Of a stretch of DNA of 9,440 nt, positions 2,865 through 9,440 are shown one piece after another (the stretch's first letter is position 1; the number at the start of each line of letters is the position of its first letter). The notes beneath the pieces were generated by a model, which was not told the origin of the DNA, made no database searches, and saw nothing but the letters and a program-made list of their open reading frames with translations. The position numbers and the translations under genes were made by a program. The DNA lies in IMG/VR virus record IMGVR_UViG_3300023038_000043, positions 1 through 9,440 of that record, one strand, 5' to 3'. The DNA comes from a virus. Its lineage: Duplodnaviria > Heunggongvirae > Uroviricota > Caudoviricetes.

Positions 2865-3515
2865 TTAAAATTTAAGATTTTTCAGTGCATTCAGTGCGAC
2901 ATCCACATCCTCAGCATCACGCAGGGATAAAGCGCCATATCCCCCGGCCATGAATGCTTTGGCCTGGGTTCGCGAGAGTCCAACATCGCGCAGGACTCGC
3001 TCAATAATTTTCTGATCGGGGATCTCCCCACGCGCCAGCGCATTTTTCACATCGCTGATGCGTGCTTCATCATTGGAAGGAAACGTCACCAGACTGACCT
3101 CCCACAGGTCGATCTCTTTCAGCAGGAATACCCCTTTTTCCCGGTCGTACTCCCAGTCTTTCAGGATGTAGCCAATAGAAAGGCCGGTTAAAGAACCGGC
3201 CTTCATATGGGCATGTGCACGTTTTGCCAGGGGATCATCATCAACGAGTAATCGCCCCCTGACATAAAGCCCGACATCATCTTCTTTCATTTCGGTGTAC
3301 ACACCGATGGGCTCATCCATACGGTGCTGCCAGAGCAACGCAGGCAGCGCCTTTTTTTCGCTCCATTTCTGGAGTGTTGTGGTAAAGGCTCCGGGGATCA
3401 CCACATCATCGTGGCTGTCCTTAACACCAAAAACAGAACCGTAACCTTCAAATTCCCCGGAATCACTGACGGATTTCAGGTTCAGCGGTATATCAAGACG
3501 CTGTTTTATCTGCAT
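2865..3515 (-). CDS. Prohead protease, HK97 family (216 aa from ATG at 3515; longer alternative from ATG at 3545)
   Basis: The ATG at 3515..3513 is preceded by AAGGAGA (rc of 3523-3531), whereas the 3545 ATG has no SD. MQIKQRLDIPLNLKSVSDSGEFEGYGSVFGVKDSHDDVV... is typical of HK97 gp4-type proteases. Sits between portal and capsid. Confidence 0.88.
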   Translation of the reverse strand: MQIKQRLDIPLNLKSVSDSGEFEGYGSVFGVKDSHDDVVIPGAFTTTLQKWSEKKALPALLWQHRMDEPIGVYTEMKEDDVGLYVRGRLLVDDDPLAKRAHAHMKAGSLTGLSIGYILKDWEYDREKGVFLLKEIDLWEVSLVTFPSNDEARISDVKNALARGEIPDQKIIERVLRDVGLSRTQAKAFMAGGYGALSLRDAEDVDVALNALKNLKF

Positions 3516-4734
3516 CTCCACTCTCCTTTTTCTTACCGTTGTCATCGCCAGCAGAGGGACTGGTGGTCATGTTCATCGGTGTCAGATACACATCACCGCC
3601 TGGTCGGGGATTCATATCCTCCAGATCACGGCAGTCATTAGGGGAATAAATCCCCCAGTTGATCCCCGTGGCATACGCTTCAAAGCGGGATTTCATGTCG
3701 CCACGCAACAATGCTCCGGCATTAAATTTGGCGTAAAACCTCCCCTGTTTGCTCTCCCTGACCAGCCCTGTATTGATCCGTTGTTCAATACGGGTCAGAT
3801 ACGGCACAAGGGAATAGTTGATAAATCCGAGCCCCAGCTCTTCAATATTGTTGAAGGTGGCGCGATCGGTGTTCTGCACCATGTGCAATGGCACACGGAA
3901 CAGACGACAGATTTCTTCCAGCTGAAACTTGCGGGTTTCCAGGAACTGGCTGTCCTCGGCGTTCAGCGCCATCGACTTCCAGTCCAGCCCCATTTCCAGA
4001 ATCATCGGGCGGTGAGCATTGCCAAGCCCCGTGTGACGCTCCTCAAAATCTTTCTTCAGACGCTCGTAAGCATCCGGCGTGAGCTTTTGTTCCGTACGCA
4101 ACACACCGGATGTCACCGCACCATTACCAAACAACCTGGCACCGTGCTCCTCGGTTGCCGCTGCCAGTGAAATGGCCTCACGCGCATACGCAATGGGATT
4201 CAGCCCCACCAGTCCGTCCAGCGTCAGAGTGCGCACATGCCAGATTTTATCCTGGGTCAGCACATCCACGGAACCATCCGGAAACGTCACCTGATAAACC
4301 GGCTGCCACTGGCTGTTCAGCTTCGGTTCCACACAGCCCGGATCTATCGGAAGAAGCTCCACCACTTCCCCCAGTGCCTTTACCTTGTAGGCGTAAAAAT
4401 TCCCCCGCAGACACAGGCAGACAATGACCAGTTCCCAGAATTCCTGCGGCGTCATGTAGCCATTGGGTTTTGCCGAAATCAGCTTATGCAGCCGTTCATC
4501 CACCGCCCGTGTTTTAAGGGTGCCGCTGATTTTGTAGAGACTGCAGGGCAGCATACCAACAGACTCAGCCAGCACCCTGACGCAGGAATAGACCGCCGTC
4601 AGCCGCATGGCCCGCTGGCTGCTGATCCGCTTTCCGGTATAGGTGTCGTATGACAGCCCGATAGCCTCCGCCAGCTCTGCTGGCGTGGTCACCGGTGCGT
4701 CACTTTTTCGTTGAAATAACCCCGAAAAGAACAC
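3493..4734 (-). CDS. Portal protein, HK97 family (apparent GTG start)
   Basis: 413-aa ORF with GGAGG 6 nt upstream of the first (GTG) codon at 4734..4732. Size, position between terminase and protease, and acidic C-terminal tail are typical of portals. Overlaps the protease gene 5' end by at least 23 nt. Confidence 0.88.
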   Translation of the reverse strand: MFFSGLFQRKSDAPVTTPAELAEAIGLSYDTYTGKRISSQRAMRLTAVYSCVRVLAESVGMLPCSLYKISGTLKTRAVDERLHKLISAKPNGYMTPQEFWELVIVCLCLRGNFYAYKVKALGEVVELLPIDPGCVEPKLNSQWQPVYQVTFPDGSVDVLTQDKIWHVRTLTLDGLVGLNPIAYAREAISLAAATEEHGARLFGNGAVTSGVLRTEQKLTPDAYERLKKDFEERHTGLGNAHRPMILEMGLDWKSMALNAEDSQFLETRKFQLEEICRLFRVPLHMVQNTDRATFNNIEELGLGFINYSLVPYLTRIEQRINTGLVRESKQGRFYAKFNAGALLRGDMKSRFEAYATGINWGIYSPNDCRDLEDMNPRPGGDVYLTPMNMTTSPSAGDDNGKKKESGDADKTAS

Positions 4735-4927: not shown

Positions 4928-6685
4928 TTAAAGCGAGCGGATACCAACACTAATCAGGTGTTCAGACAGATCCGGCTCCGGTTCACCGCCATTGACCAGC
5001 ATCCGGCTCATTGCTGTAAACATCGCAACAGGGCCGTCGATTTTTGCTTCAGGCGTGGATTTGTTCGGGAAGATATTGTCGTTTTTGTCCGGTTTTACCG
5101 TAACGTTAGACATCATCCAGTTCATGACCGGGTGATTGCTGTGGTGAAAACGCCCGGCATAGACCAGTGATTCCGTTTCCTTCATGGCCTCTGACAGATT
5201 GCGGACCGTCTGCGGAACTTCCACCAGCGGTATCCCTTCTTCAGCCAGAGCCAGACTGAACTGCATTGCACTCCACGGGTCAAATCCCAGCTCCCTCAGG
5301 TTTTCACCACCAATCCATTCCAGTAAGTCACTTTTTATCTGAGCATGATCGATAACATCACCATCCGTCAGGATGAGCTTATCCATCTCCGCCCATTTCC
5401 GGTAAAGTTCTGCCTGCTGCCGCGAGCACCGCTCCAGCCGTCCTTCCGGGAGCCAGAATTTAAAATCAGCATGAACATGTCCGTTATCGGTTCGCCAGAG
5501 TTTTGCCGCCGCACAGATATCAATCTTATGAGCAAGGTCGACGCCGACCCACATGGGATACGTTTTCAGCTCATGTCGTGGGGCAATATATTCGCATTTC
5601 TCCCACTTAATCATGTCCATCCAGGCAGACTCTGCTGTTACCCACACATTCATGTGTTTCGTGAAAAAATTCACCCGCGCTGAAACCTGTTCCTTCGCTT
5701 TTTTCGCCAGACGACGCAGATCATCCCAGCGTTTACAGATGCCCAGGCCCGGATTCGCTTTCTGCCAGACCGTTTCATCAAACGGATCATCTCCCTCATC
5801 GAGCGTGTAAATAATCGCAAAGTAGGAGTCGTCTTTTACCGCGCCCTCCACGTCACTGTTATAGCCTCGCAATACCTTGATGGCGTAATCGCGTTGCTCG
5901 TAACAAATCCCTTCCTTGTTAAAGCCCGCCGTGGTGATACCAAATAACAGGGACTGCAGACGGGCACCGGTTGCCGTTTCCAGAACGTCCCACACGTCGC
6001 GGGTTTTATGTGCATGCAGCTCATCAATAATGGCGCAGTGGATGTTCAGACCGTCCAGGTTGTTTGCATCCGAGGAAAGCGGTTCAAATTTTGATGCACT
6101 CTGCTCCTGGTAAATCGCCAGCTTGTTGAAATCAAACAACCGCCCGAGTGTCGACCGGGCTTTTCTGACCATATTTTTGGCGTCTTCAAACACGATTCTG
6201 GCCTGGTCACGCGTGGTTGCGGCTGAATACACCTCAGCCCCGCCTTCACCATCTGCCCCCGTCATATACAGACCGATACCCGATGACAGGGTTGATTTTG
6301 CGTTTTTACGGGCGACTTCGTTGTACGCCGTCCGGAACCGGCGCACCATCACCGGGCGCCCGCTGCCATCGCTGCGCATGACAACTTCCCCGGTCTCTTC
6401 ATTCACCAGCGGAATGACAAAACCAAAAATATTAATGAGGATAAAAACATGCCAGTCCATCAACTCAATGGGCTGACCTGCCAGCGCCCCTTTCACATGG
6501 GGCACAAATTTGTAGAAATTCAGGATGTGCTGCGCACGGGGTTCACTGAAATAAATCCCCCGCTCTTCGCCGTACTTCAGATCATCAAGAAAACGCTGGC
6601 AGGCCAGACGGACAAATTCGCCAGCGACAATTTCTCCTGCAACAACACGTTCGGCGTAGCGGATCCCGTCAGCCACTTTTGCCAT
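4928..6685 (-). CDS. Terminase large subunit (Terminase_1-like ATPase/nuclease)
   Basis: 585 aa; ATG at 6685..6683 shares a nucleotide with the small-subunit TGA (TGATG coupling). Contains a Walker-B-like hydrophobic-DE motif ([14 protein letters not shown]) and overall terminase-like layout. Lies between the small subunit and portal. Confidence 0.93.
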
Positions 6686-7167
6686 CAGTCTCTCGCTTTT
6701 AAAAGCTCTGCCAGTGGATCAACATCATCCGGTCCGGCGGTATTTACTTTCGCCCGGCTTGCCGGTGACATACCAAACTCTGCAAGCATCGCCCGGATCC
6801 GCTTCCAGGCATCCGCCTTCATCGCCGCAGCCGGATGTGCCTTGATCATCACATCGCCATTCTGCGTTTCCGTGCGGTAGGTATAACCCTCAACATCGAG
6901 TGTTTCGCAGTGATGCCGGTATTCGATGTAGGCTTCCACCAGTAACTCGAGTGCACGCGCATCAAGCTGAGAAATGATCCCTTCCGCATTCAGCTCTTCC
7001 GCCATTCGCCTGAACCAGTACTTCCCCTGCGCCCCTAAATGTTGCGGAATTTTAGGGAGACCTTTTTCATCCTTTTTAGCGGCTTTTTTGGGGTCTTTAA
7101 CGGGGCGCTTTGAGGGGTTGCCTCGTATCAAATGCAGGCGTGGCGGGGTTTTCGGGGGTCCTGACAT
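6685..7167 (-). CDS. Terminase small subunit (P27-family-like)
   Basis: 160 aa; ATG at 7167..7165. Basic Lys/Pro-rich N-terminus (PPKTPPRLHLIRGNPSKRPVKDPKKAAKKDEKGLP) followed by a helical region, typical of P27-type small subunits. Immediately upstream of and coupled to the large subunit. Confidence 0.85.
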   Translation of the reverse strand: MSGPPKTPPRLHLIRGNPSKRPVKDPKKAAKKDEKGLPKIPQHLGAQGKYWFRRMAEELNAEGIISQLDARALELLVEAYIEYRHHCETLDVEGYTYRTETQNGDVMIKAHPAAAMKADAWKRIRAMLAEFGMSPASRAKVNTAGPDDVDPLAELLKARD

Positions 7168-7313: not shown

Positions 7314-7664
7314 TCACCTGATTCGTTCGCGCGCTGTTTTCGCTTTGTGGCAGGGCCAGCACAGACTCTGCAGGTTGCTGTCTGCGTCTGTTCCGCCATG
7401 TGCTTTCGGGATGATGTGGTCGACAGTTTTCGCCTCGCGCACCACACCGACACGCAGACACAACTGACACAGACCTTTATCGCGCTTCAGAATACGGGCA
7501 CGAATCACCGTCCATTTTGAGCCATAACCACGCTGGTGGCGGCTCAGTCCGCGCTGGTGCTGTGCCCAGCCTTCACCACGATGTTTATCGCAGTAGCCAG
7601 AACTGTCTGTCGTTGTGCCTGCGCAGCCTCGCTTACGGCATGCGCGGGGGATCCGTGATGGCAT
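7314..7664 (-). CDS. HNH endonuclease (packaging-associated, HK97 gp74-like)
   Basis: 116 aa; Cys-x2-Cys...His...Asn...His...Cys-x2-Cys layout (CQLCLRVGVVREAKTVDHIIPKAHGGTDADSNLQSLCWPCHKAKT) plus an N-terminal Cys cluster. Located directly upstream of cos/terS. Confidence 0.9.
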   Translation of the reverse strand: MPSRIPRACRKRGCAGTTTDSSGYCDKHRGEGWAQHQRGLSRHQRGYGSKWTVIRARILKRDKGLCQLCLRVGVVREAKTVDHIIPKAHGGTDADSNLQSLCWPCHKAKTARERIR

Positions 7665-7682
7665 AGAATTTCACTCTCCTGA

Positions 7683-7691
7683 TGGTAAAAT
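7683..7691 (+). promoter_or_regulatory. Candidate extended -10 promoter (TGgTAAAAT) for the plus-strand 70-aa gene
   Basis: TGn plus TAAAAT (5/6 match to TATAAT) lies 33-41 nt upstream of the ATG at 7724; no good -35, which is tolerated for extended -10 promoters. GGAG RBS at 7715-7718. Confidence 0.3.
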
Positions 7692-7723
7692 AACCATTCC
7701 TTAAAAACCTATACGGAGAACAA

Positions 7724-7936
7724 ATGAAAAATACTATTTCAAAAGGATTTCACCGGACAGGCGTTCTGTTGGCTATTTTGGTGTTGATGTTGAGCTTTGG
7801 TTTCTTTTTATTAACAGGTGCTGGTACAGGAATCTCGTTATTTGCTGTATTAGTTTCCCTGGTATGTGCCTTACTGACATACGGCATACTCAGACTGGTC
7901 GGATGGGCCGTTAACGGATTCATAAAAGATAACTAA
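7724..7936 (+). CDS. Small two-TM membrane protein (70 aa), opposite-strand AT-rich moron-like gene
   Basis: ATG at 7724 with GGAG 5 nt upstream; MKNTISKGFHRTGVLLAILVLMLSFGFFLLTGAGTGISLFAVLVSLVCALLTYGILRLVGWAVNGF... has two hydrophobic helices. About 40% GC by hand count versus visibly GC-richer flanks, and AT-rich codons (tta, att, ttt). Followed by a hairpin. Confidence 0.6.
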   Translation: MKNTISKGFHRTGVLLAILVLMLSFGFFLLTGAGTGISLFAVLVSLVCALLTYGILRLVGWAVNGFIKDN

Positions 7937-7945
7937 AACATTATC

Positions 7946-7970
7946 GCAGCCCCTCACACTGAAGGGCTGC
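7946..7970. terminator. Hairpin between convergent small genes (7-bp stem gcagccc/gggctgc, about 11-nt loop); weak bidirectional terminator candidate
   Basis: Perfect 7-bp GC-rich inverted repeat 10 nt after the plus-strand TAA (7934-7936) and 15 nt after the minus-strand 60-aa gene stop. Flanking U-tracts are poor on both strands, so termination is probably partial. Confidence 0.35.
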
Positions 7971-7984
7971 TGTAATGCTGGTGA

Positions 7985-8167
7985 TCAGTTCTGCGTACAC
8001 AGTCGAACGCCATCAATAAGCTGGCAGACCTGAAACGCGGTATCGAAAAGCTGGCGCGCCTTATCCAGACTGACGCATCCCACCAGGAAAAAAGGCACCA
8101 GTATCGCTACCAGTGCCCATTTCGCCGCCGTTCGCGGCATTCTGTGTGTCCAGTGTTTTCGGTTCAT
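7985..8167 (-). CDS. Small lipoprotein-like / membrane protein (60 aa) with candidate lipobox LVGC
   Basis: ATG at 8167..8165 lies 1 nt after the upstream 37-aa ORF stop (TGAcATG), preceded by a GGTGGTG SD-like sequence. Basic n-region, hydrophobic h-region (WALVAILVPFFLVG), then Cys, leaving a roughly 29-aa mature peptide with 3 Cys. An internal ATG at 8140 would give a canonical 22-aa signal peptide. Confidence 0.5.
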   Translation of the reverse strand: MNRKHWTHRMPRTAAKWALVAILVPFFLVGCVSLDKARQLFDTAFQVCQLIDGVRLCTQN

Positions 8168-8168
8168 G

Positions 8169-8282
8169 TCACCACCAACGCACAGCCAAAATCAGAACAG
8201 CAATCACCACAAGGCGAATTGCAAAGGCCGCAGCCCTTGTCAAATCAAGGCTCGCGGGAGTTTCCACTTCAATACCTTTCAT
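8169..8282 (-). CDS. 37-aa tail-anchored hydrophobic peptide (below the ORF-track length cutoff)
   Basis: Hand translation: ATG at 8282..8280, GAGG 9 nt upstream, product MKGIEVETPASLDLTRAAAFAIRLVVIAVLILAVRWW, stop TGA at 8171..8169, tightly coupled to the 60-aa gene. A TATAAA -10-like hexamer (rc of 8307-8312) lies upstream. Confidence 0.4.
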   Translation of the reverse strand: MKGIEVETPASLDLTRAAAFAIRLVVIAVLILAVRWW

Positions 8283-8373
8283 AATGGACAACCTCAAAAA
8301 GAATCTTTTATACTTTCCCACGAGGATTTTCTCCGTACTCACTACTCACAATTTCCTCTTTGACGTGAAAACT

Positions 8374-8416
8374 AAAAACCCCGGACTGTTCCAGCAGCCG
8401 GGGTTTTGTTTTTTAT
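8374..8416. terminator. Strong bidirectional rho-independent terminator
   Basis: AAAAA (8374-8378), stem CCCCGG(A)CTG (8379-8388), 6-nt loop, CAGCCGGGG (8395-8403), then TTTTGTTTTTTATTT (8404-8416). Stem is 9 bp with one bulge. U-tracts are available on both strands. Sits immediately after the 93-aa gene stop. Confidence 0.75.
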
Positions 8417-8694
8417 TTACTGCCTTGGGTGCGGCATCTGGCTATTTCATTCCTGGCTTTACTGTCACCGCGACAGATACAACGCACCGTGTCTCCGGTC
8501 AGCGTGGTAATGTAGGCTTCATCCGTTTTTTCCACCGAAATGCATGGTACATTTCCATCCCGGCAATACTCCACTTGGGCAGCAAGGTGAGTGTTGCGCG
8601 GGTAAAATTCCAGGCGATACATATTCCCCAGAACATGCACTTCTTCAACCTGACGCCCATCTTCCGTTACCGTGATTTTTTTCAGTGCGTACAT
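8413..8694 (-). CDS. Hypothetical Cys-containing protein (93 aa), no recognised family
   Basis: ATG at 8694..8692 with perfect GGAGG 5 nt upstream (rc of 8700-8704); MYALKKITVTEDGRQVEEVHVLGNMYRLEFYPRNTHLAAQVEYCRDGNVPCISVEKTD...CICRGD...; no TM segment or signal peptide. Bracketed by terminator-like hairpins on both sides. Confidence 0.55.
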   Translation of the reverse strand: MYALKKITVTEDGRQVEEVHVLGNMYRLEFYPRNTHLAAQVEYCRDGNVPCISVEKTDEAYITTLTGDTVRCICRGDSKARNEIARCRTQGSK

Positions 8695-8723
8695 ACATAC
8701 CTCCGTTCTTTCGTTTTTTGAGC

Positions 8724-8747
8724 AATAAAAAAGCCGCTCATGGCGGC
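8724..8747 (-). terminator. Candidate rho-independent terminator downstream of the endolysin gene (5-bp GC stem plus U-run on the minus-strand transcript)
   Basis: gccgc (8733-8737) / gcggc (8743-8747) stem with tcatg loop; on the minus-strand RNA the hairpin is followed by UUUUUUAUU (rc of 8724-8732). Short stem, so strength is uncertain. Confidence 0.35.
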
Positions 8748-8764
8748 CCTGTATGTTTTGCAAG

Positions 8765-9142
8765 CTATCGTTTCAATTGAAAATGTGGGCCGTCTTTAAG
8801 CGTCCGCCAGTCACCGCCCCATTCGATGGCAGTTCCAAGCTCTGCGGCAGCCTGCTTAAATGCCTGCGCGATTTTCTCGTACAGAGGCCAGTCCCATGAC
8901 ACCTGGCTGCCAACATAAGCCACAACATCCACAGCATCACCGGTCAGGTGGCGGCTGTTCATGGTCTGGCTTTTCCCTTCCGCGACCAGCTGTTTCTGGC
9001 GTTCTTTCGTGCGCAGCCCTTCCGTAATACCGAAATCAACCTCCGTCAGCTCCAGCGCACGGCGAACAACAGCAACCAGCTGTGGTTTGACGCCCTCCAG
9101 ATTTTTTTCACTGCGACGACTGAATCTGAATTTACCCGACAT
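8765..9142 (-). CDS. Endolysin, peptidase M15 family (VanY / L-alanyl-D-glutamate peptidase-like)
   Basis: ATG at 9142..9140 with GGAGG 5 nt upstream; the track ORF begins at an upstream GTG that overlaps the SD. Motifs SRHLTGDAVDV and WGGDW...DGPHFQL match the His/Asp/His zinc-binding signature of M15 peptidases as I recall it. Immediately downstream of a membrane protein. Confidence 0.82.
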   Translation of the reverse strand: MSGKFRFSRRSEKNLEGVKPQLVAVVRRALELTEVDFGITEGLRTKERQKQLVAEGKSQTMNSRHLTGDAVDVVAYVGSQVSWDWPLYEKIAQAFKQAAAELGTAIEWGGDWRTLKDGPHFQLKR

Positions 9143-9144
9143 GC

Positions 9145-9420
9145 TCACCTCCGGAATGAAAGGATTTTTGAAACGTTCCCGCGTGCACGTATCACCAGCA
9201 CGCAGAACAGCAGATTAAGCCCCACCGCCAGCCAGTTCGCCGCTAACGGGCGACCGCACAGATAGCTGAGTGGTGCAAAGGCATAAAGCAGCATCAGTAG
9301 CCAGGCCAGCCATGACATCAGCGGTTTATGTCTCGACTCACCACGACGATAAAAAAAGAGCGTCAGCACGATAACCGTGCTTAACACCACATTCAGTAAT
9401 CCGGGAAGGTTACTTAACAT
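9145..9420 (-). CDS. Putative holin (three predicted TM segments, 91 aa)
   Basis: ATG at 9420..9418 with GGAGG 5 nt upstream (rc of 9426-9430); the track ORF starts at an upstream GTG. Three hydrophobic stretches; the stop lies 2 nt from the endolysin ATG and overlaps its SD. Called by position and topology only. Confidence 0.55.
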   Translation of the reverse strand: MLSNLPGLLNVVLSTVIVLTLFFYRRGESRHKPLMSWLAWLLMLLYAFAPLSYLCGRPLAANWLAVGLNLLFCVLVIRARGNVSKILSFRR

Positions 9421-9440
9421 TACCGCCTCCACCCCGCAGA

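What the first reader, a model, noticed from the sequence alone, without database searches (positions are those of the whole stretch)
7985..8300. Tightly coupled pair of tiny hydrophobic genes (37-aa tail-anchored peptide plus 60-aa lipoprotein-like protein) convergent with the moron gene
The 37-aa ORF (missed by the ORF track) ends in a C-terminal TM segment and stops 1 nt before the ATG of a 60-aa protein with a plausible lipobox (LVGC) and a roughly 29-aa, 3-Cys mature peptide. They are far too short to be Rz/Rz1 spanins. Possibilities include a Cor/Bor-like exclusion lipoprotein, an entericidin-like pair, or a toxic small membrane peptide. The plus-strand gene converges on them across only a weak hairpin, so read-through would make antisense RNA over the pair, an arrangement reminiscent of 3'-overlapping type I toxin-antitoxin loci.
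Basis: partly seen in the sequence, partly recalled or inferred. Interest (0 to 1): 0.6.

Follow-up and report, generated by a model that had tools for sequence, protein, structure and literature searches.

The report
Spanin-slot lipoprotein plus small membrane peptide
The two tiny genes are the last genes of a prophage lysis cassette: a 60-residue lipoprotein precursor sits where other lambdoid phages carry the outer-membrane-breaking Rz/Rz1 spanin pair, with no inner-membrane partner in view, and it follows a conserved 50-residue membrane peptide that precedes true Rz/Rz1 in other phages.

Summary
Both ORFs are under purifying selection and meet at a TGA-C-ATG junction. The upstream ORF most likely starts at GTG 8321, giving 50 aa rather than 37.

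They are not an exclusion, entericidin-like or 3'-overlap toxin-antitoxin locus. They follow holin (9145-9432) and M15 endolysin (8765-9148) on the minus strand. The lipoprotein (LPP) always ends a lysis cassette: behind three endolysin types and at least three holin types, and directly after the endolysin in 35 of 80 loci. No i-spanin-like gene lies beside it. Its phiP27 homolog is already listed by Kongari et al. 2018 as the shortest "o-spanin"; the i-spanin they paired with it looks spurious.

ORF1 is a separate accessory gene. Nearly identical copies sit 1 nt before LPP or before canonical Rz/Rz1. The only LPP pseudogenes seen are in cassettes that also carry Rz/Rz1.

Best reading (about 0.5): LPP performs the outer-membrane step of lysis without an i-spanin, and ORF1 is a coupled, tail-anchored lysis accessory. 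A conserved antisense promoter-like site plus terminator over ORF1's start suggests a roughly 90-nt antisense RNA; this is unproven. The convergent 70-aa gene is an incidental moron.

The parts
7985..8167 (-). LPP: 60-aa prolipoprotein. It has a long basic n-region, an h-region, lipobox LVGC with Cys31, and a 30-aa mature peptide with the pattern C-x16-C-x8-C. It is the last gene of the lysis cassette and occupies the Rz/Rz1 slot.
   Evidence: phrog_7528; invariant L28, G30, C31, C48, C57; pN/pS 0.25; always follows an endolysin; phiP27 homolog listed as an o-spanin.
8169..8321 (-). ORF1: 50-aa small membrane protein (GTG start; MGKYKRFFLRLSIMKGIEVETPASLDLTRAAAFAIRLVVIAVLILAVRWW). The N-terminus is basic and the single hydrophobic segment is C-terminal. 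The stop lies 1 nt before the LPP ATG.
   Evidence: phrog_4493, full length; start codon varies only GTG/ATG/TTG; core pN/pS 0.11; best 19-residue KD window is residues 29-47.
8280..8282 (-). It may be a second start.
   Evidence: ATG and GAGG conserved in ORF1 and ORF1D lineages. Inference only; no translation data.
8374..8415 (.). G+C-rich hairpin (CCCCGG...CCGGGG) flanked by A- and T-runs. It is a bidirectional terminator-like element that forms the upstream boundary of the ORF1 module.
   Evidence: homology among at least 5 upstream contexts begins at this hairpin; -22.6 / -21.4 kcal/mol.
8285..8314 (+). Sigma-70-like promoter match (TGGACA-18-TATACT) antisense inside ORF1 codons 3-13.
   Evidence: -10 and the 18-nt spacer invariant; -35 varies as TGGACA/TTGTCA/TGGTCA/TAGTCA in every module that the search, anchored on the conserved AAGTATAAA, picked up; synonymous divergence here is 0.087 against 0.267 in the core. 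Candidate only.
8320..8412 (+). Candidate antisense RNA of about 90 nt. It would cover ORF1's start codon and Shine-Dalgarno and end at the hairpin and T-run.
   Evidence: (MFE -30.9 kcal/mol, z -4.6). Rfam gives only sub-threshold hits. There is no expression evidence.
7946..7970 (-). Stem-loop after LPP; probable terminator of the minus-strand transcript (U-tract on the minus strand only).
   Evidence: The same sequence follows LPP in L165, which lacks the 70-aa gene.
8765..9148 (-). M15-family endolysin of the same cassette.
   Evidence: PF13539, 2.9e-12; phrog_465, endolysin.
9145..9432 (-). 3-TM holin (Phage_holin_3_7).
   Evidence: PF05449, 2.3e-21; phrog_217.
8413..8694 (-). 93-aa Cys-rich protein of unknown function. 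It is an optional insert between the endolysin and the ORF1 module.
   Evidence: phrog_33497; present in only a minority of cassettes.

Best explanation
The two ORFs are the distal end of the prophage's late lysis operon: holin, M15 endolysin, a 93-aa ORF, a hairpin, ORF1, then LPP.

LPP. It is made as a 60-aa precursor, lipidated at Cys31, and sorted to the outer membrane because residue +2 is not Asp. There it carries out, or is required for, the last step of lysis, breaching the outer membrane after the endolysin has removed the wall. In this it replaces the Rz/Rz1 spanin pair. No inner-membrane partner is encoded beside it, and its mature part is only 30 residues. The mechanism is therefore probably not the bridging and fusion of the two membranes that spanins perform. 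It is more likely direct destabilisation of the outer membrane by a small, helical lipopeptide, possibly disulfide-linked. That would resemble the about 28-residue colicin-release lipoproteins or the phiKT disruptin.

ORF1. It is a separate 50-aa, N-in, tail-anchored inner-membrane peptide. It always sits 1 nt upstream of the outer-membrane-step gene, whichever kind that is. It most likely tunes the timing or expression of that step: its translation is coupled to the downstream gene, and its own start may be controlled by a cis-antisense RNA.

Shown here: coding status, cassette membership, slot equivalence with Rz/Rz1, and absence of an adjacent i-spanin. Inferred: lipidation and outer-membrane sorting, lytic function, mechanism, ORF1's role, and the antisense RNA.
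For: 1. Cassette membership. In every related locus LPP is the gene after the endolysin. The endolysin is of three types (M15, GH108, and a 175-aa amidase-like protein) and the holins are of at least three types, while the packaging modules downstream differ. In 35 of 80 loci LPP starts 17 nt after the endolysin stop.

2. Slot equivalence. ORF1 copies 88-90% identical in protein sequence are followed 1 nt later either by LPP (P0125, 8 of 8 places) or by Rz (PF03245) with embedded Rz1 (PF06085) (P0136, 8 of 8 places; L162, L163; phages GER2 and PhiR12_2). Some LPP cassettes have bor on the opposite strand right after LPP, as lambda has after Rz/Rz1.

3. No canonical spanin. The 160 loci from the two window-seeded IMG/VR scans (L004-L163) gave no lambda-type Rz or Rz1 hit, apart from L162 and L163, the two whose cassettes carry Rz/Rz1. 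The complete phiSTEC1575-Stx2k genome has none either, and only two lipobox ORFs, one of them LPP.

4. Redundancy signal. 256 of 258 LPP hits are intact. The two with three in-frame stops are the two loci that also carry Rz/Rz1.

5. Selection. pN/pS is 0.20 for the mature part. The lipobox Leu/Gly/Cys and two further Cys are invariant.

6. Prior listing. Kongari et al. list the phiP27 homolog as an o-spanin with a 30-aa periplasmic part. The i-spanin they paired with it is a TTG ORF antisense to a gene with its own PHROG (phrog_36812), and it has no PHROG itself.

7. ORF1 is not LPP's i-spanin. It co-occurs with complete Rz/Rz1, LPP often lacks it, and its first 15 residues carry five basic residues (net +5), which predicts N-in.
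Against: - There is no experimental datum for either protein. All function is inferred from position and conservation.
- A 30-residue lipopeptide with net charge about 0 and a modest hydrophobic moment (0.42) is not obviously membrane-lytic.
- It has no sequence similarity to colicin lysis proteins, Rz1 or the spanin models (NF037950 E 0.11 only).
- AlphaFold gives only a generic helix at pLDDT 70.
- Spanins are dispensable under many laboratory conditions, so these phages might simply lack an outer-membrane-step protein and LPP might do something else.
- The pseudogene argument rests on one evolutionary event.
- I searched only for lambda/21-type Rz/Rz1, with a simple lipobox scan. An unrelated i-spanin elsewhere in these genomes is not strictly excluded.
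Confidence: 0.5

Rival explanations
1. Minimal two-component spanin. ORF1 would be an unconventional i-spanin (type I, N-out/C-in, C-terminal TMD) whose roughly 20-residue N-tail contacts the 30-residue LPP across a collapsed periplasm.
For: The gene order and tight coupling match 'separated' two-component spanins. [quoted passage not shown] The N-tail of the 37-aa form is net -1, so it could be translocated. ORF1 is followed by LPP in 78 of 80 ORF1-seeded loci.
Against: LPP stands alone after the endolysin in 35 of 80 loci and in all divergent lineages. ORF1 is kept under purifying selection directly upstream of complete Rz/Rz1. The supported 50-aa form has a strongly basic N-terminus, which predicts N-in. 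The combined periplasmic length would be about 50 residues, below the 62-residue minimum in the spanin survey.
Confidence: 0.1
2. LPP is a lysis regulator rather than the effector. It would be a periplasm-facing lipoprotein that modulates holin triggering or endolysin activity, while the outer membrane fails passively.
For: In E. coli lineages LPP always travels with the Phage_holin_8 + Phage_holin_3_7 pair, whatever the endolysin. Accessory small lysis proteins that act at the holin level exist, such as LambdaSo Lcc6.
Against: In Lelliottia/Enterobacter-type cassettes LPP accompanies a different single holin. Its slot is exchanged with Rz/Rz1, not with an antiholin, and it decays where Rz/Rz1 is present.
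Confidence: 0.15
3. LPP is a moron-type surface lipoprotein used for receptor masking, superinfection exclusion or serum resistance (Cor, Llp or Bor-like), and merely lodges next to the lysis genes.
For: It is a small outer-membrane lipoprotein in a temperate phage. Lambda bor lies next to Rz/Rz1. The family is narrow and confined to Enterobacteriaceae.
Against: It is on the late strand, 17 nt after the endolysin stop, with no promoter or terminator between them, so it would not be expressed in lysogens. It is linked to lysis modules, while the packaging modules downstream differ (P27-type, Nu1/GpA-type and DUF1441-type terminases). Tail genes lie outside most of the loci held, and the one complete genome examined has lambda-type tail genes. 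It has no Bor, Cor or entericidin Pfam hit. A true bor coexists with it on the opposite strand.
Confidence: 0.1
4. ORF1 with its antisense RNA is a type I toxin-antitoxin-like module (a membrane-toxic peptide silenced by a cis-antisense RNA) that inserted upstream of the spanin-slot gene. Its association with LPP would be positional only.
For: ORF1 is a 50-aa hydrophobic peptide. A promoter-like site and terminator on the opposite strand, covering ORF1's SD and start, are conserved in every ORF1-family module that the search, anchored on the conserved AAGTATAAA, picked up. Synonymous divergence is three-fold lower across the promoter-bearing codons. The module has a sharp upstream boundary and moves between cassettes.
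Against: No sense promoter lies between the hairpin and ORF1, so ORF1 depends on antiterminated late transcription. It is always coupled to a lysis gene and is never found alone in the loci held. There are no Rfam matches above threshold. The single promoter match is within the chance expectation for the region: 1 found against 1.3 expected.
Confidence: 0.1

Closest known systems
Two-component spanins (lambda Rz/Rz1), in particular the o-spanin component. The phiP27 entry in Kongari et al. 2018 (PMC6139136) is the direct homolog.
   Same: It has an outer-membrane lipoprotein signal and is the last gene of the lysis cassette. It occupies exactly the position taken by Rz/Rz1 downstream of ORF1. 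The phiP27 homolog (89.7% nucleotide identity, 88% protein identity) is already listed as an o-spanin.
   Different: No i-spanin lies beside it in any context. The listed phiP27 i-spanin looks like a false call. The mature part is 30 residues, with no Pro, and is predicted helical, whereas Rz1 is proline-rich with a mature part of about 40 residues. There is no PF06085 hit.
Colicin lysis / bacteriocin release proteins (Kil, Cal, pCloDF13 BRP; Pfam Lysis_col). Comparison from my own knowledge.
   Same: These are precursors of about 45-60 aa and mature lipopeptides of about 28-30 aa. They act alone to permeabilise the outer membrane and cause lysis-like release. Their signal peptides are conserved beyond generic need.
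   Different: There is no sequence similarity and no Pfam hit at E<=1. LPP is phage-encoded, sits behind an endolysin, and has two extra conserved Cys. Dependence on OmpLA has not been tested.
Disruptin (phage phiKT gp28; bioRxiv 10.1101/515445)
   Same: It is a non-spanin, single small protein proposed for the outer-membrane step in phages without spanins.
   Different: Disruptin is a cationic, non-lipidated antimicrobial-peptide-like protein. Mature LPP has net charge about 0 and carries a lipobox.
Unimolecular spanins (T1 gp11)
   Same: It is a single gene with an outer-membrane lipoprotein signal in a lysis cassette.
   Different: u-spanins need a C-terminal TMD to reach the inner membrane. 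LPP ends ...CTQN with no hydrophobic segment.
Accessory small membrane lysis factors (LambdaSo Lcc6; Mu releasin), compared with ORF1
   Same: These are small single-TMD phage proteins that act in lysis in addition to holin, endolysin and spanin.
   Different: Lcc6 has an N-terminal TMD and is encoded far from the lysis genes. ORF1 is tail-anchored and always lies immediately upstream of the outer-membrane-step gene. There is no homology.
P22 sar RNA, and the hok/mok/sok logic, compared with the candidate antisense RNA
   Same: A short antisense RNA starts inside the 5' end of the target ORF and covers its ribosome-binding site. Translation of the downstream gene is coupled to that ORF.
   Different: The Rfam hit to sar is sub-threshold: 20.5 bits against a gathering score of 43. 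There is no evidence of expression.

Membership tests
o-spanin (two-component spanin, outer-membrane subunit) | Lipoprotein signal peptide with lipobox, and no Lol-avoidance Asp at +2 | tested here: met
   The family shows L-[VASM]-G-C, with one P-V-G-C member (P0201). The Leu at -3 (bar P0201), the Gly and the Cys are the conserved core. Residue +2 is V, A, T, S, G or E and never D. Sequence-level only; lipidation is not shown.
o-spanin (two-component spanin, outer-membrane subunit) | Gene embedded in, overlapping or adjacent to an i-spanin gene (N-terminal TMD plus a periplasmic, usually coiled-coil, domain) | tested here: not met
   No such ORF flanks LPP in the window or in any of the context types examined. 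ORF1 has a C-terminal TMD and also precedes complete Rz/Rz1.
o-spanin (two-component spanin, outer-membrane subunit) | Located in the lysis cassette with holin and endolysin | tested here: met
o-spanin (two-component spanin, outer-membrane subunit) | Forms a periplasm-spanning complex with the i-spanin and is required for outer-membrane disruption | not testable with these tools
   This needs genetics and biochemistry. The mature length of 30 residues is the shortest in the Kongari survey.
Rz1 family (Pfam PF06085) | Sequence match to the family model | tested here: not met
   No Pfam family at E<=1. NCBIfam spanin2_1 gives only E 0.11 and 12.9 bits against a cut-off of 100.
Unimolecular spanin | N-terminal lipoprotein signal plus a C-terminal transmembrane domain | tested here: not met
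   There is no hydrophobic segment after Cys31.
Colicin lysis protein / BRP (Pfam Lysis_col) | Sequence match to the family. Small lipoprotein with a mature part of about 28 aa. | tested here: not met
   The size and lipobox fit, but there is no Pfam hit at E<=1. The resemblance is functional and size-based only.
Entericidin / Bor / Cor-type lipoproteins | Sequence match to the respective families, with expression from the prophage's own promoter | tested here: not met
   There are no Pfam, NCBIfam or PADLOC hits. LPP starts 17 nt after the endolysin stop with no promoter between them. A genuine bor coexists with it.
Type I toxin-antitoxin locus | Small hydrophobic toxin ORF with its own promoter, plus a cis- or trans-antisense RNA antitoxin | tested here: inconclusive
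The ORF1 peptide fits. An antisense promoter-like site and terminator are conserved. No sense promoter is found, there is no Rfam family, and there are no expression data.

The most novel reading that the evidence does not exclude
LPP may define a third kind of phage outer-membrane-step protein. It would be a stand-alone lipopeptide of about 30 residues (C-x16-C-x8-C) that replaces the whole Rz/Rz1 spanin complex without spanning the periplasm. In part of the family its expression would be gated by a coupled upstream membrane peptide (ORF1), whose ribosome-binding site is covered by a prophage-encoded antisense RNA. ORF1 would then be an unrecognised fourth component of many Stx and lambdoid lysis cassettes, including those with canonical Rz/Rz1.
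Probability: 0.3. Interest if true: 0.75.

Novelty: new variant of a known kind. Interest (0 to 1): 0.55.

Why it matters
About 13-15% of phages of Gram-negative hosts have no recognisable spanin (PMC6139136; bioRxiv 10.1101/515445). How they breach the outer membrane is largely open, and the cationic disruptin of phiKT is the only alternative named in the papers I consulted.

This family is common in E. coli, Shigella, Salmonella and Citrobacter prophages, including Stx2e and Stx2k phages. It sits in a genetically tractable host. It occupies the same slot as Rz/Rz1 behind a shared upstream gene. A direct swap or complementation test in the lambda system is therefore feasible.

If LPP works alone, it would be a very small lipopeptide effector of outer-membrane failure. 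It would also correct the published classification of phiP27 as a two-component spanin phage.

ORF1 is listed in thousands of index blocks of public assemblies (4369 for one variant, 2585 for another; the contig counts shown are capped at about 1000) and is annotated only as hypothetical. If it is a general accessory of lambdoid lysis cassettes, models of Stx-phage lysis and toxin release are missing a component.

Tried and rejected
- **Family scans.** Pfam, NCBIfam and PADLOC scans of both peptides gave nothing usable. PHROGs gave only families of unknown function.
- **Structure.** AlphaFold2 on the LPP alignment gave one continuous helix at pLDDT 70 and pTM 0.31, so I ran no fold search. A profile search of PDB sequences gave only noise.
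- **Remote homology.** A profile search of 1.84 billion representatives found only 23 proteins. Most are of similar short length, with no link to a larger o-spanin family.
- **Species genomes.** The genome-contig scan found only 3 species representatives.
- **Rfam.** At permissive thresholds over 7600-8800 there were only sub-threshold hits.
- **Literature on an sRNA here.** The EcOnc anti-sRNAs of EHEC lie at the pR' moron site, not at this position.
- **Literature on orphan o-spanins or a small ORF between R and Rz.** Nothing relevant turned up.
- **Database names.** Both proteins carry only "hypothetical", "putative transmembrane protein" or "lipoprotein".
- **+1 frameshift fusion of ORF1 to LPP or Rz at UGG-UGA-C.** Considered and rejected, by inference and not tested. 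tRNA-Trp cannot re-pair on GGU, and the fusion product would make no topological sense.
- **LPP as a deletion derivative of Rz1.** Considered and rejected. There is no similarity beyond the signal peptide, and the Cys and Pro patterns differ.
- **Search with the divergent-subfamily alignment.** I repeated it with the single protein P0199.
Full report
**1. What is in the window**

The minus strand carries a phage late region:
- holin, 9145-9432 (PF05449)
- M15 endolysin, 8765-9148 (PF13539)
- a 93-aa ORF, 8413-8694 (phrog_33497)
- a G+C-rich hairpin, 8379-8403
- the two small ORFs of the finding
- after a plus-strand 70-aa two-TM ORF (7724-7936): HNH endonuclease 7314-7664, P27-type small terminase 6685-7167, large terminase, portal, protease and capsid

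The finding therefore lies at the boundary between the lysis module and the packaging module.

The nearest public DNA is in STEC prophages and in phage phiSTEC1575-Stx2k (95.5% identity). Phage phiP27 shares only the lipoprotein gene (89.7%).

**2. The observation**

It is confirmed. On the minus strand the junction reads ...TGG TGG TGA C ATG AAC...

The 60-aa product (LPP) has a long basic n-region, a hydrophobic core, LVGC, and a 30-residue mature part with Cys at +1, +18 and +27. The upstream ORF ends in LVVIAVLILAVRWW.

Both are real genes.
- Each matches a PHROG of unknown function end to end.
- Each has many homologs in Enterobacteriaceae.
- Over 71 and 16 distinct alleles respectively, pN/pS is 0.25 (LPP) and 0.11 (ORF1 core). 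In the ORF1 core, 26 of 39 variable sites are at third codon positions.
- The two shifted frames give 0.9-3.0.

Two corrections follow.

ORF1 very probably starts at GTG 8321, giving 50 aa.
- The codon changes only to ATG or TTG in relatives.
- A GGAG lies 9 nt upstream.
- phrog_4493 aligns from residue 1 of the 50-aa form.
- A 38%-identical homolog (ORF1D, phrog_1115) keeps the extension at protein level.

The ATG at 8282, with its own GAGG, is also conserved and may be a second start.

LPP starts at the first Met. Codons 1-9 are under purifying selection. The RKHWTHR motif persists in relatives 57-63% identical to P0199, the divergent-subfamily query, and in Lelliottia-type proteins such as P0199.

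**3. Context across relatives**

I collected 160 IMG/VR loci seeded by either protein, and further loci from genomes and isolated phages.

LPP is always the gene after an endolysin.
- In 35 of 80 LPP-seeded loci it starts 17 nt after the M15 endolysin stop, with nothing between.
- In 23 loci the window-type ORF1 precedes it.
- In 22 loci a diverged ORF1D plus a 44-aa TM ORF precede it.
- The endolysin may be M15, GH108 or a 175-aa amidase-like protein.
- The holins are of at least three kinds.
- The packaging module downstream varies among P27-type, lambda Nu1/GpA-type and DUF1441-type.
- Some cassettes have bor on the opposite strand right after LPP, which is the lambda S-R-Rz/Rz1-bor layout.

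LPP therefore belongs to the lysis module. It does not belong to the tail or packaging modules. This argues against a receptor-masking or exclusion role.

**4. ORF1 is not LPP's partner**

In 78 of 80 ORF1-seeded loci LPP follows ORF1. In the other two, a lambda-like Rz with embedded Rz1 starts 1 nt after the ORF1 stop, behind an S21-type pinholin and a SAR-type lysozyme.

This is not rare.
- The ORF1 variant P0136 is listed in 2585 index blocks. All 8 places shown have Rz/Rz1 after it, for example in O111:H- 11128.
- The variant P0125 is listed in 4369 blocks. All 8 places shown have LPP after it.
- The same holds for isolated phages: ORF1 then Rz in Stx phage GER2, and ORF1D + TM44 then Rz in PhiR12_2.

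So ORF1 is a conserved accessory gene placed immediately before the outer-membrane-step gene. LPP and Rz/Rz1 are alternative occupants of one slot.

One case points to redundancy. Of the 258 LPP hits in all loci held, the only two with in-frame stops (three stops each, the same allele) are L163 and GER2. These are the two loci that also carry Rz/Rz1. The pseudogene there is still preceded by a relic of the ORF1-LPP junction. This is one evolutionary event.

**5. No i-spanin**

- No ORF with an N-terminal TMD and a periplasmic domain flanks LPP in any context.
- tblastn with lambda and phage-21-type Rz/Rz1 finds nothing in the 160 window-seeded LPP and ORF1 loci, apart from L162 and L163, which carry Rz/Rz1.
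- The complete phiSTEC1575-Stx2k genome has no such homolog. It has only two lipobox ORFs, LPP and a 138-aa moron after Q.

Kongari et al. 2018 list phiP27 as a "separated" two-component spanin phage with the shortest periplasmic length of their 677-genome survey: 32 + 30 residues. Their o-spanin (20706-20861) is the 51-aa form of LPP.

Their i-spanin (20348-20542) is a TTG-initiated ORF. It lies antisense to a 90-aa gene that has its own PHROG (phrog_36812) and a 46%-identical relative. It matches no PHROG itself and is absent from other LPP cassettes. I regard it as a false positive.

phiP27 also lacks ORF1.

**6. The protein families**

LPP is a narrow family. A profile search of 1.84 billion representative proteins returned 23 hits, most of similar short length. 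Species genomes with it are Salmonella, Citrobacter and Lelliottia.

The conserved pattern is a signal peptide, lipobox L-[VASM]-G-C, then C-x16-C-x8(9)-C.
- No Asp at +2.
- No Pro.
- Net charge near 0.
- Predicted helical (Kongari's Jpred figure is 83% helix).

In a continuous helix Cys+18 and Cys+27 would face opposite sides (9 x 100 degrees). That would favour intermolecular over intrahelical disulfides. This is inference only.

ORF1 is a 50-mer with three parts:
- a basic N-terminal stretch (five basic residues in the first 15; net +5)
- an acidic linker
- one hydrophobic segment containing an invariant Arg and ending in RWW

The predicted topology is N-in and tail-anchored, with essentially no periplasmic domain.

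**7. A candidate antisense RNA**

The homology shared by all ORF1 modules starts exactly at the hairpin 8379-8403.

On the plus strand, inside ORF1 codons 3-13, there is a sigma-70-like match (TGGACA-18-TATACT, 8285-8314). It is followed 59 nt later by that hairpin, whose T-run is better on the plus strand.

In every module that the search picked up (the search was anchored on the conserved AAGTATAAA), including the 38%-identical ORF1D and the Rz-linked modules:
- the -10 and the 18-nt spacer are invariant
- the -35 keeps T-x-G-x-C-A
- a hairpin with a T-tail follows 39-66 nt downstream; in 14 modules the hairpin pattern used did not match

Synonymous divergence over these 13 codons is 0.087, against 0.267 in the rest of ORF1.

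The predicted RNA of about 90 nt (8320-8412, +) would pair with ORF1's start codon and Shine-Dalgarno. It folds at -30.9 kcal/mol, z -4.6.

Cautions apply.
- One promoter match is what chance predicts for the region (1 found, 1.3 expected).
- Rfam gives only sub-threshold hits (sar, 20.5 bits).
- I found no expression data.
- The low synonymous rate could instead reflect the internal ribosome-binding site.

No sense promoter lies between the hairpin and ORF1. ORF1 and LPP should therefore be expressed only from antiterminated late transcripts.

**8.

- Entericidin, Bor, Cor and defence models: no hits.
- Convergent-gene antisense (3' type I TA): the 70-aa gene occurs in 5 of 160 related loci. 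The hairpin after LPP is strong (-22.8 / -26.4 kcal/mol) and travels with LPP. Read-through in this particular prophage cannot be excluded, because the plus strand lacks a U-tract, but it is not a conserved arrangement.
- "Too short for spanins" is correct for canonical spanins. It missed that the genes sit in the spanin slot.

**9. Most likely mechanism**

LPP is a late, lipid-anchored outer-membrane peptide. It completes lysis after wall degradation, functionally replacing Rz/Rz1 but without bridging the two membranes. In working principle it may resemble colicin-release lipoproteins or disruptin.

ORF1 is an accessory inner-membrane peptide. Its translation is coupled to the outer-membrane-step gene, and its initiation may be held down in lysogens by the antisense RNA.

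My confidence in each step:
- cassette membership, about 0.85
- ORF1 is not an i-spanin, about 0.7
- LPP is the outer-membrane-step effector, about 0.5
- the antisense RNA is real, about 0.4

None of these steps has been tested experimentally.

**10. Novelty**

The lipoprotein is partly known, through a bioinformatic o-spanin listing for phiP27. Four points appear to be new:
- it consistently lacks any i-spanin
- it is interchangeable with Rz/Rz1 behind a shared upstream gene
- ORF1 is a widespread, unannotated lysis-cassette component
- a conserved antisense element may exist

I rate the finding as a new variant of a known kind, of moderate to good interest, and readily testable in E. coli.

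Noticed in passing
window 8285-8314 (+) and 8320-8412 (+): A conserved sigma-70-like promoter match inside ORF1's 5' codons, followed by a terminator hairpin in the same orientation. Together they predict an antisense RNA of about 90 nt over ORF1's SD and start. The -10 and the 18-nt spacer are invariant in every module that the search, anchored on the conserved AAGTATAAA, picked up.
   Followed up: partly
L002 (phiP27) 3322-3516 (-), equal to NC_003356 20348-20542: The ORF listed as the phiP27 i-spanin in Kongari et al. 2018 starts with TTG, lies antisense to a 90-aa gene with its own PHROG (phrog_36812), and has no PHROG match itself. It is probably a false positive, which would make phiP27 an LPP-only phage.
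   Followed up: partly
L163 3423-3602 and L187 (phage GER2) 3875-4036: An LPP pseudogene with three in-frame stops, preceded by a relic of the ORF1-LPP junction, lies downstream of an ORF1-Rz/Rz1 cassette and a histidine-phosphatase moron.
   Followed up: yes
window 7724-7936 (+): A 70-aa two-TM ORF convergent with LPP. It has only a weak, sub-threshold DUF6050 hit and is present in 5 of 160 related loci, so it looks like a moron of unknown function.
   Followed up: partly
window 8413-8694 (-): A 93-aa Cys-rich protein (phrog_33497, no Pfam) is optionally inserted between the endolysin and the ORF1 module. Its function is unknown.
   Followed up: no
L021 3662-3844 and about 3865-3996; L186 (PhiR12_2) 2501-2829: A diverged version of the ORF1 module: a 60-aa ORF1D (phrog_1115) plus a 43-44-aa TM ORF (phrog_4906). 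It precedes either LPP or Rz. ORF1 may be a condensed form of this two-gene unit.
   Followed up: partly
L165 2301-2516: A 71-aa Cys/His-rich moron with its own terminator is inserted between the hairpin and the ORF1 core. The insertion removes ORF1's N-terminal extension and the antisense promoter region, yet the ORF1 core and LPP stay intact.
   Followed up: partly
L268 (phiSTEC1575-Stx2k) 19848-20063: A second, class II (S21-like) holin gene lies upstream of the Phage_holin_8 / Phage_holin_3_7 pair in the same late region. It may be a remnant of an exchanged lysis cassette.
   Followed up: no
window 9145-9148: The holin stop and the endolysin start overlap (the GTG-start endolysin ORF runs 9148->8765 and the holin ends at 9145). 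This is the usual tight coupling within the cassette.
   Followed up: no
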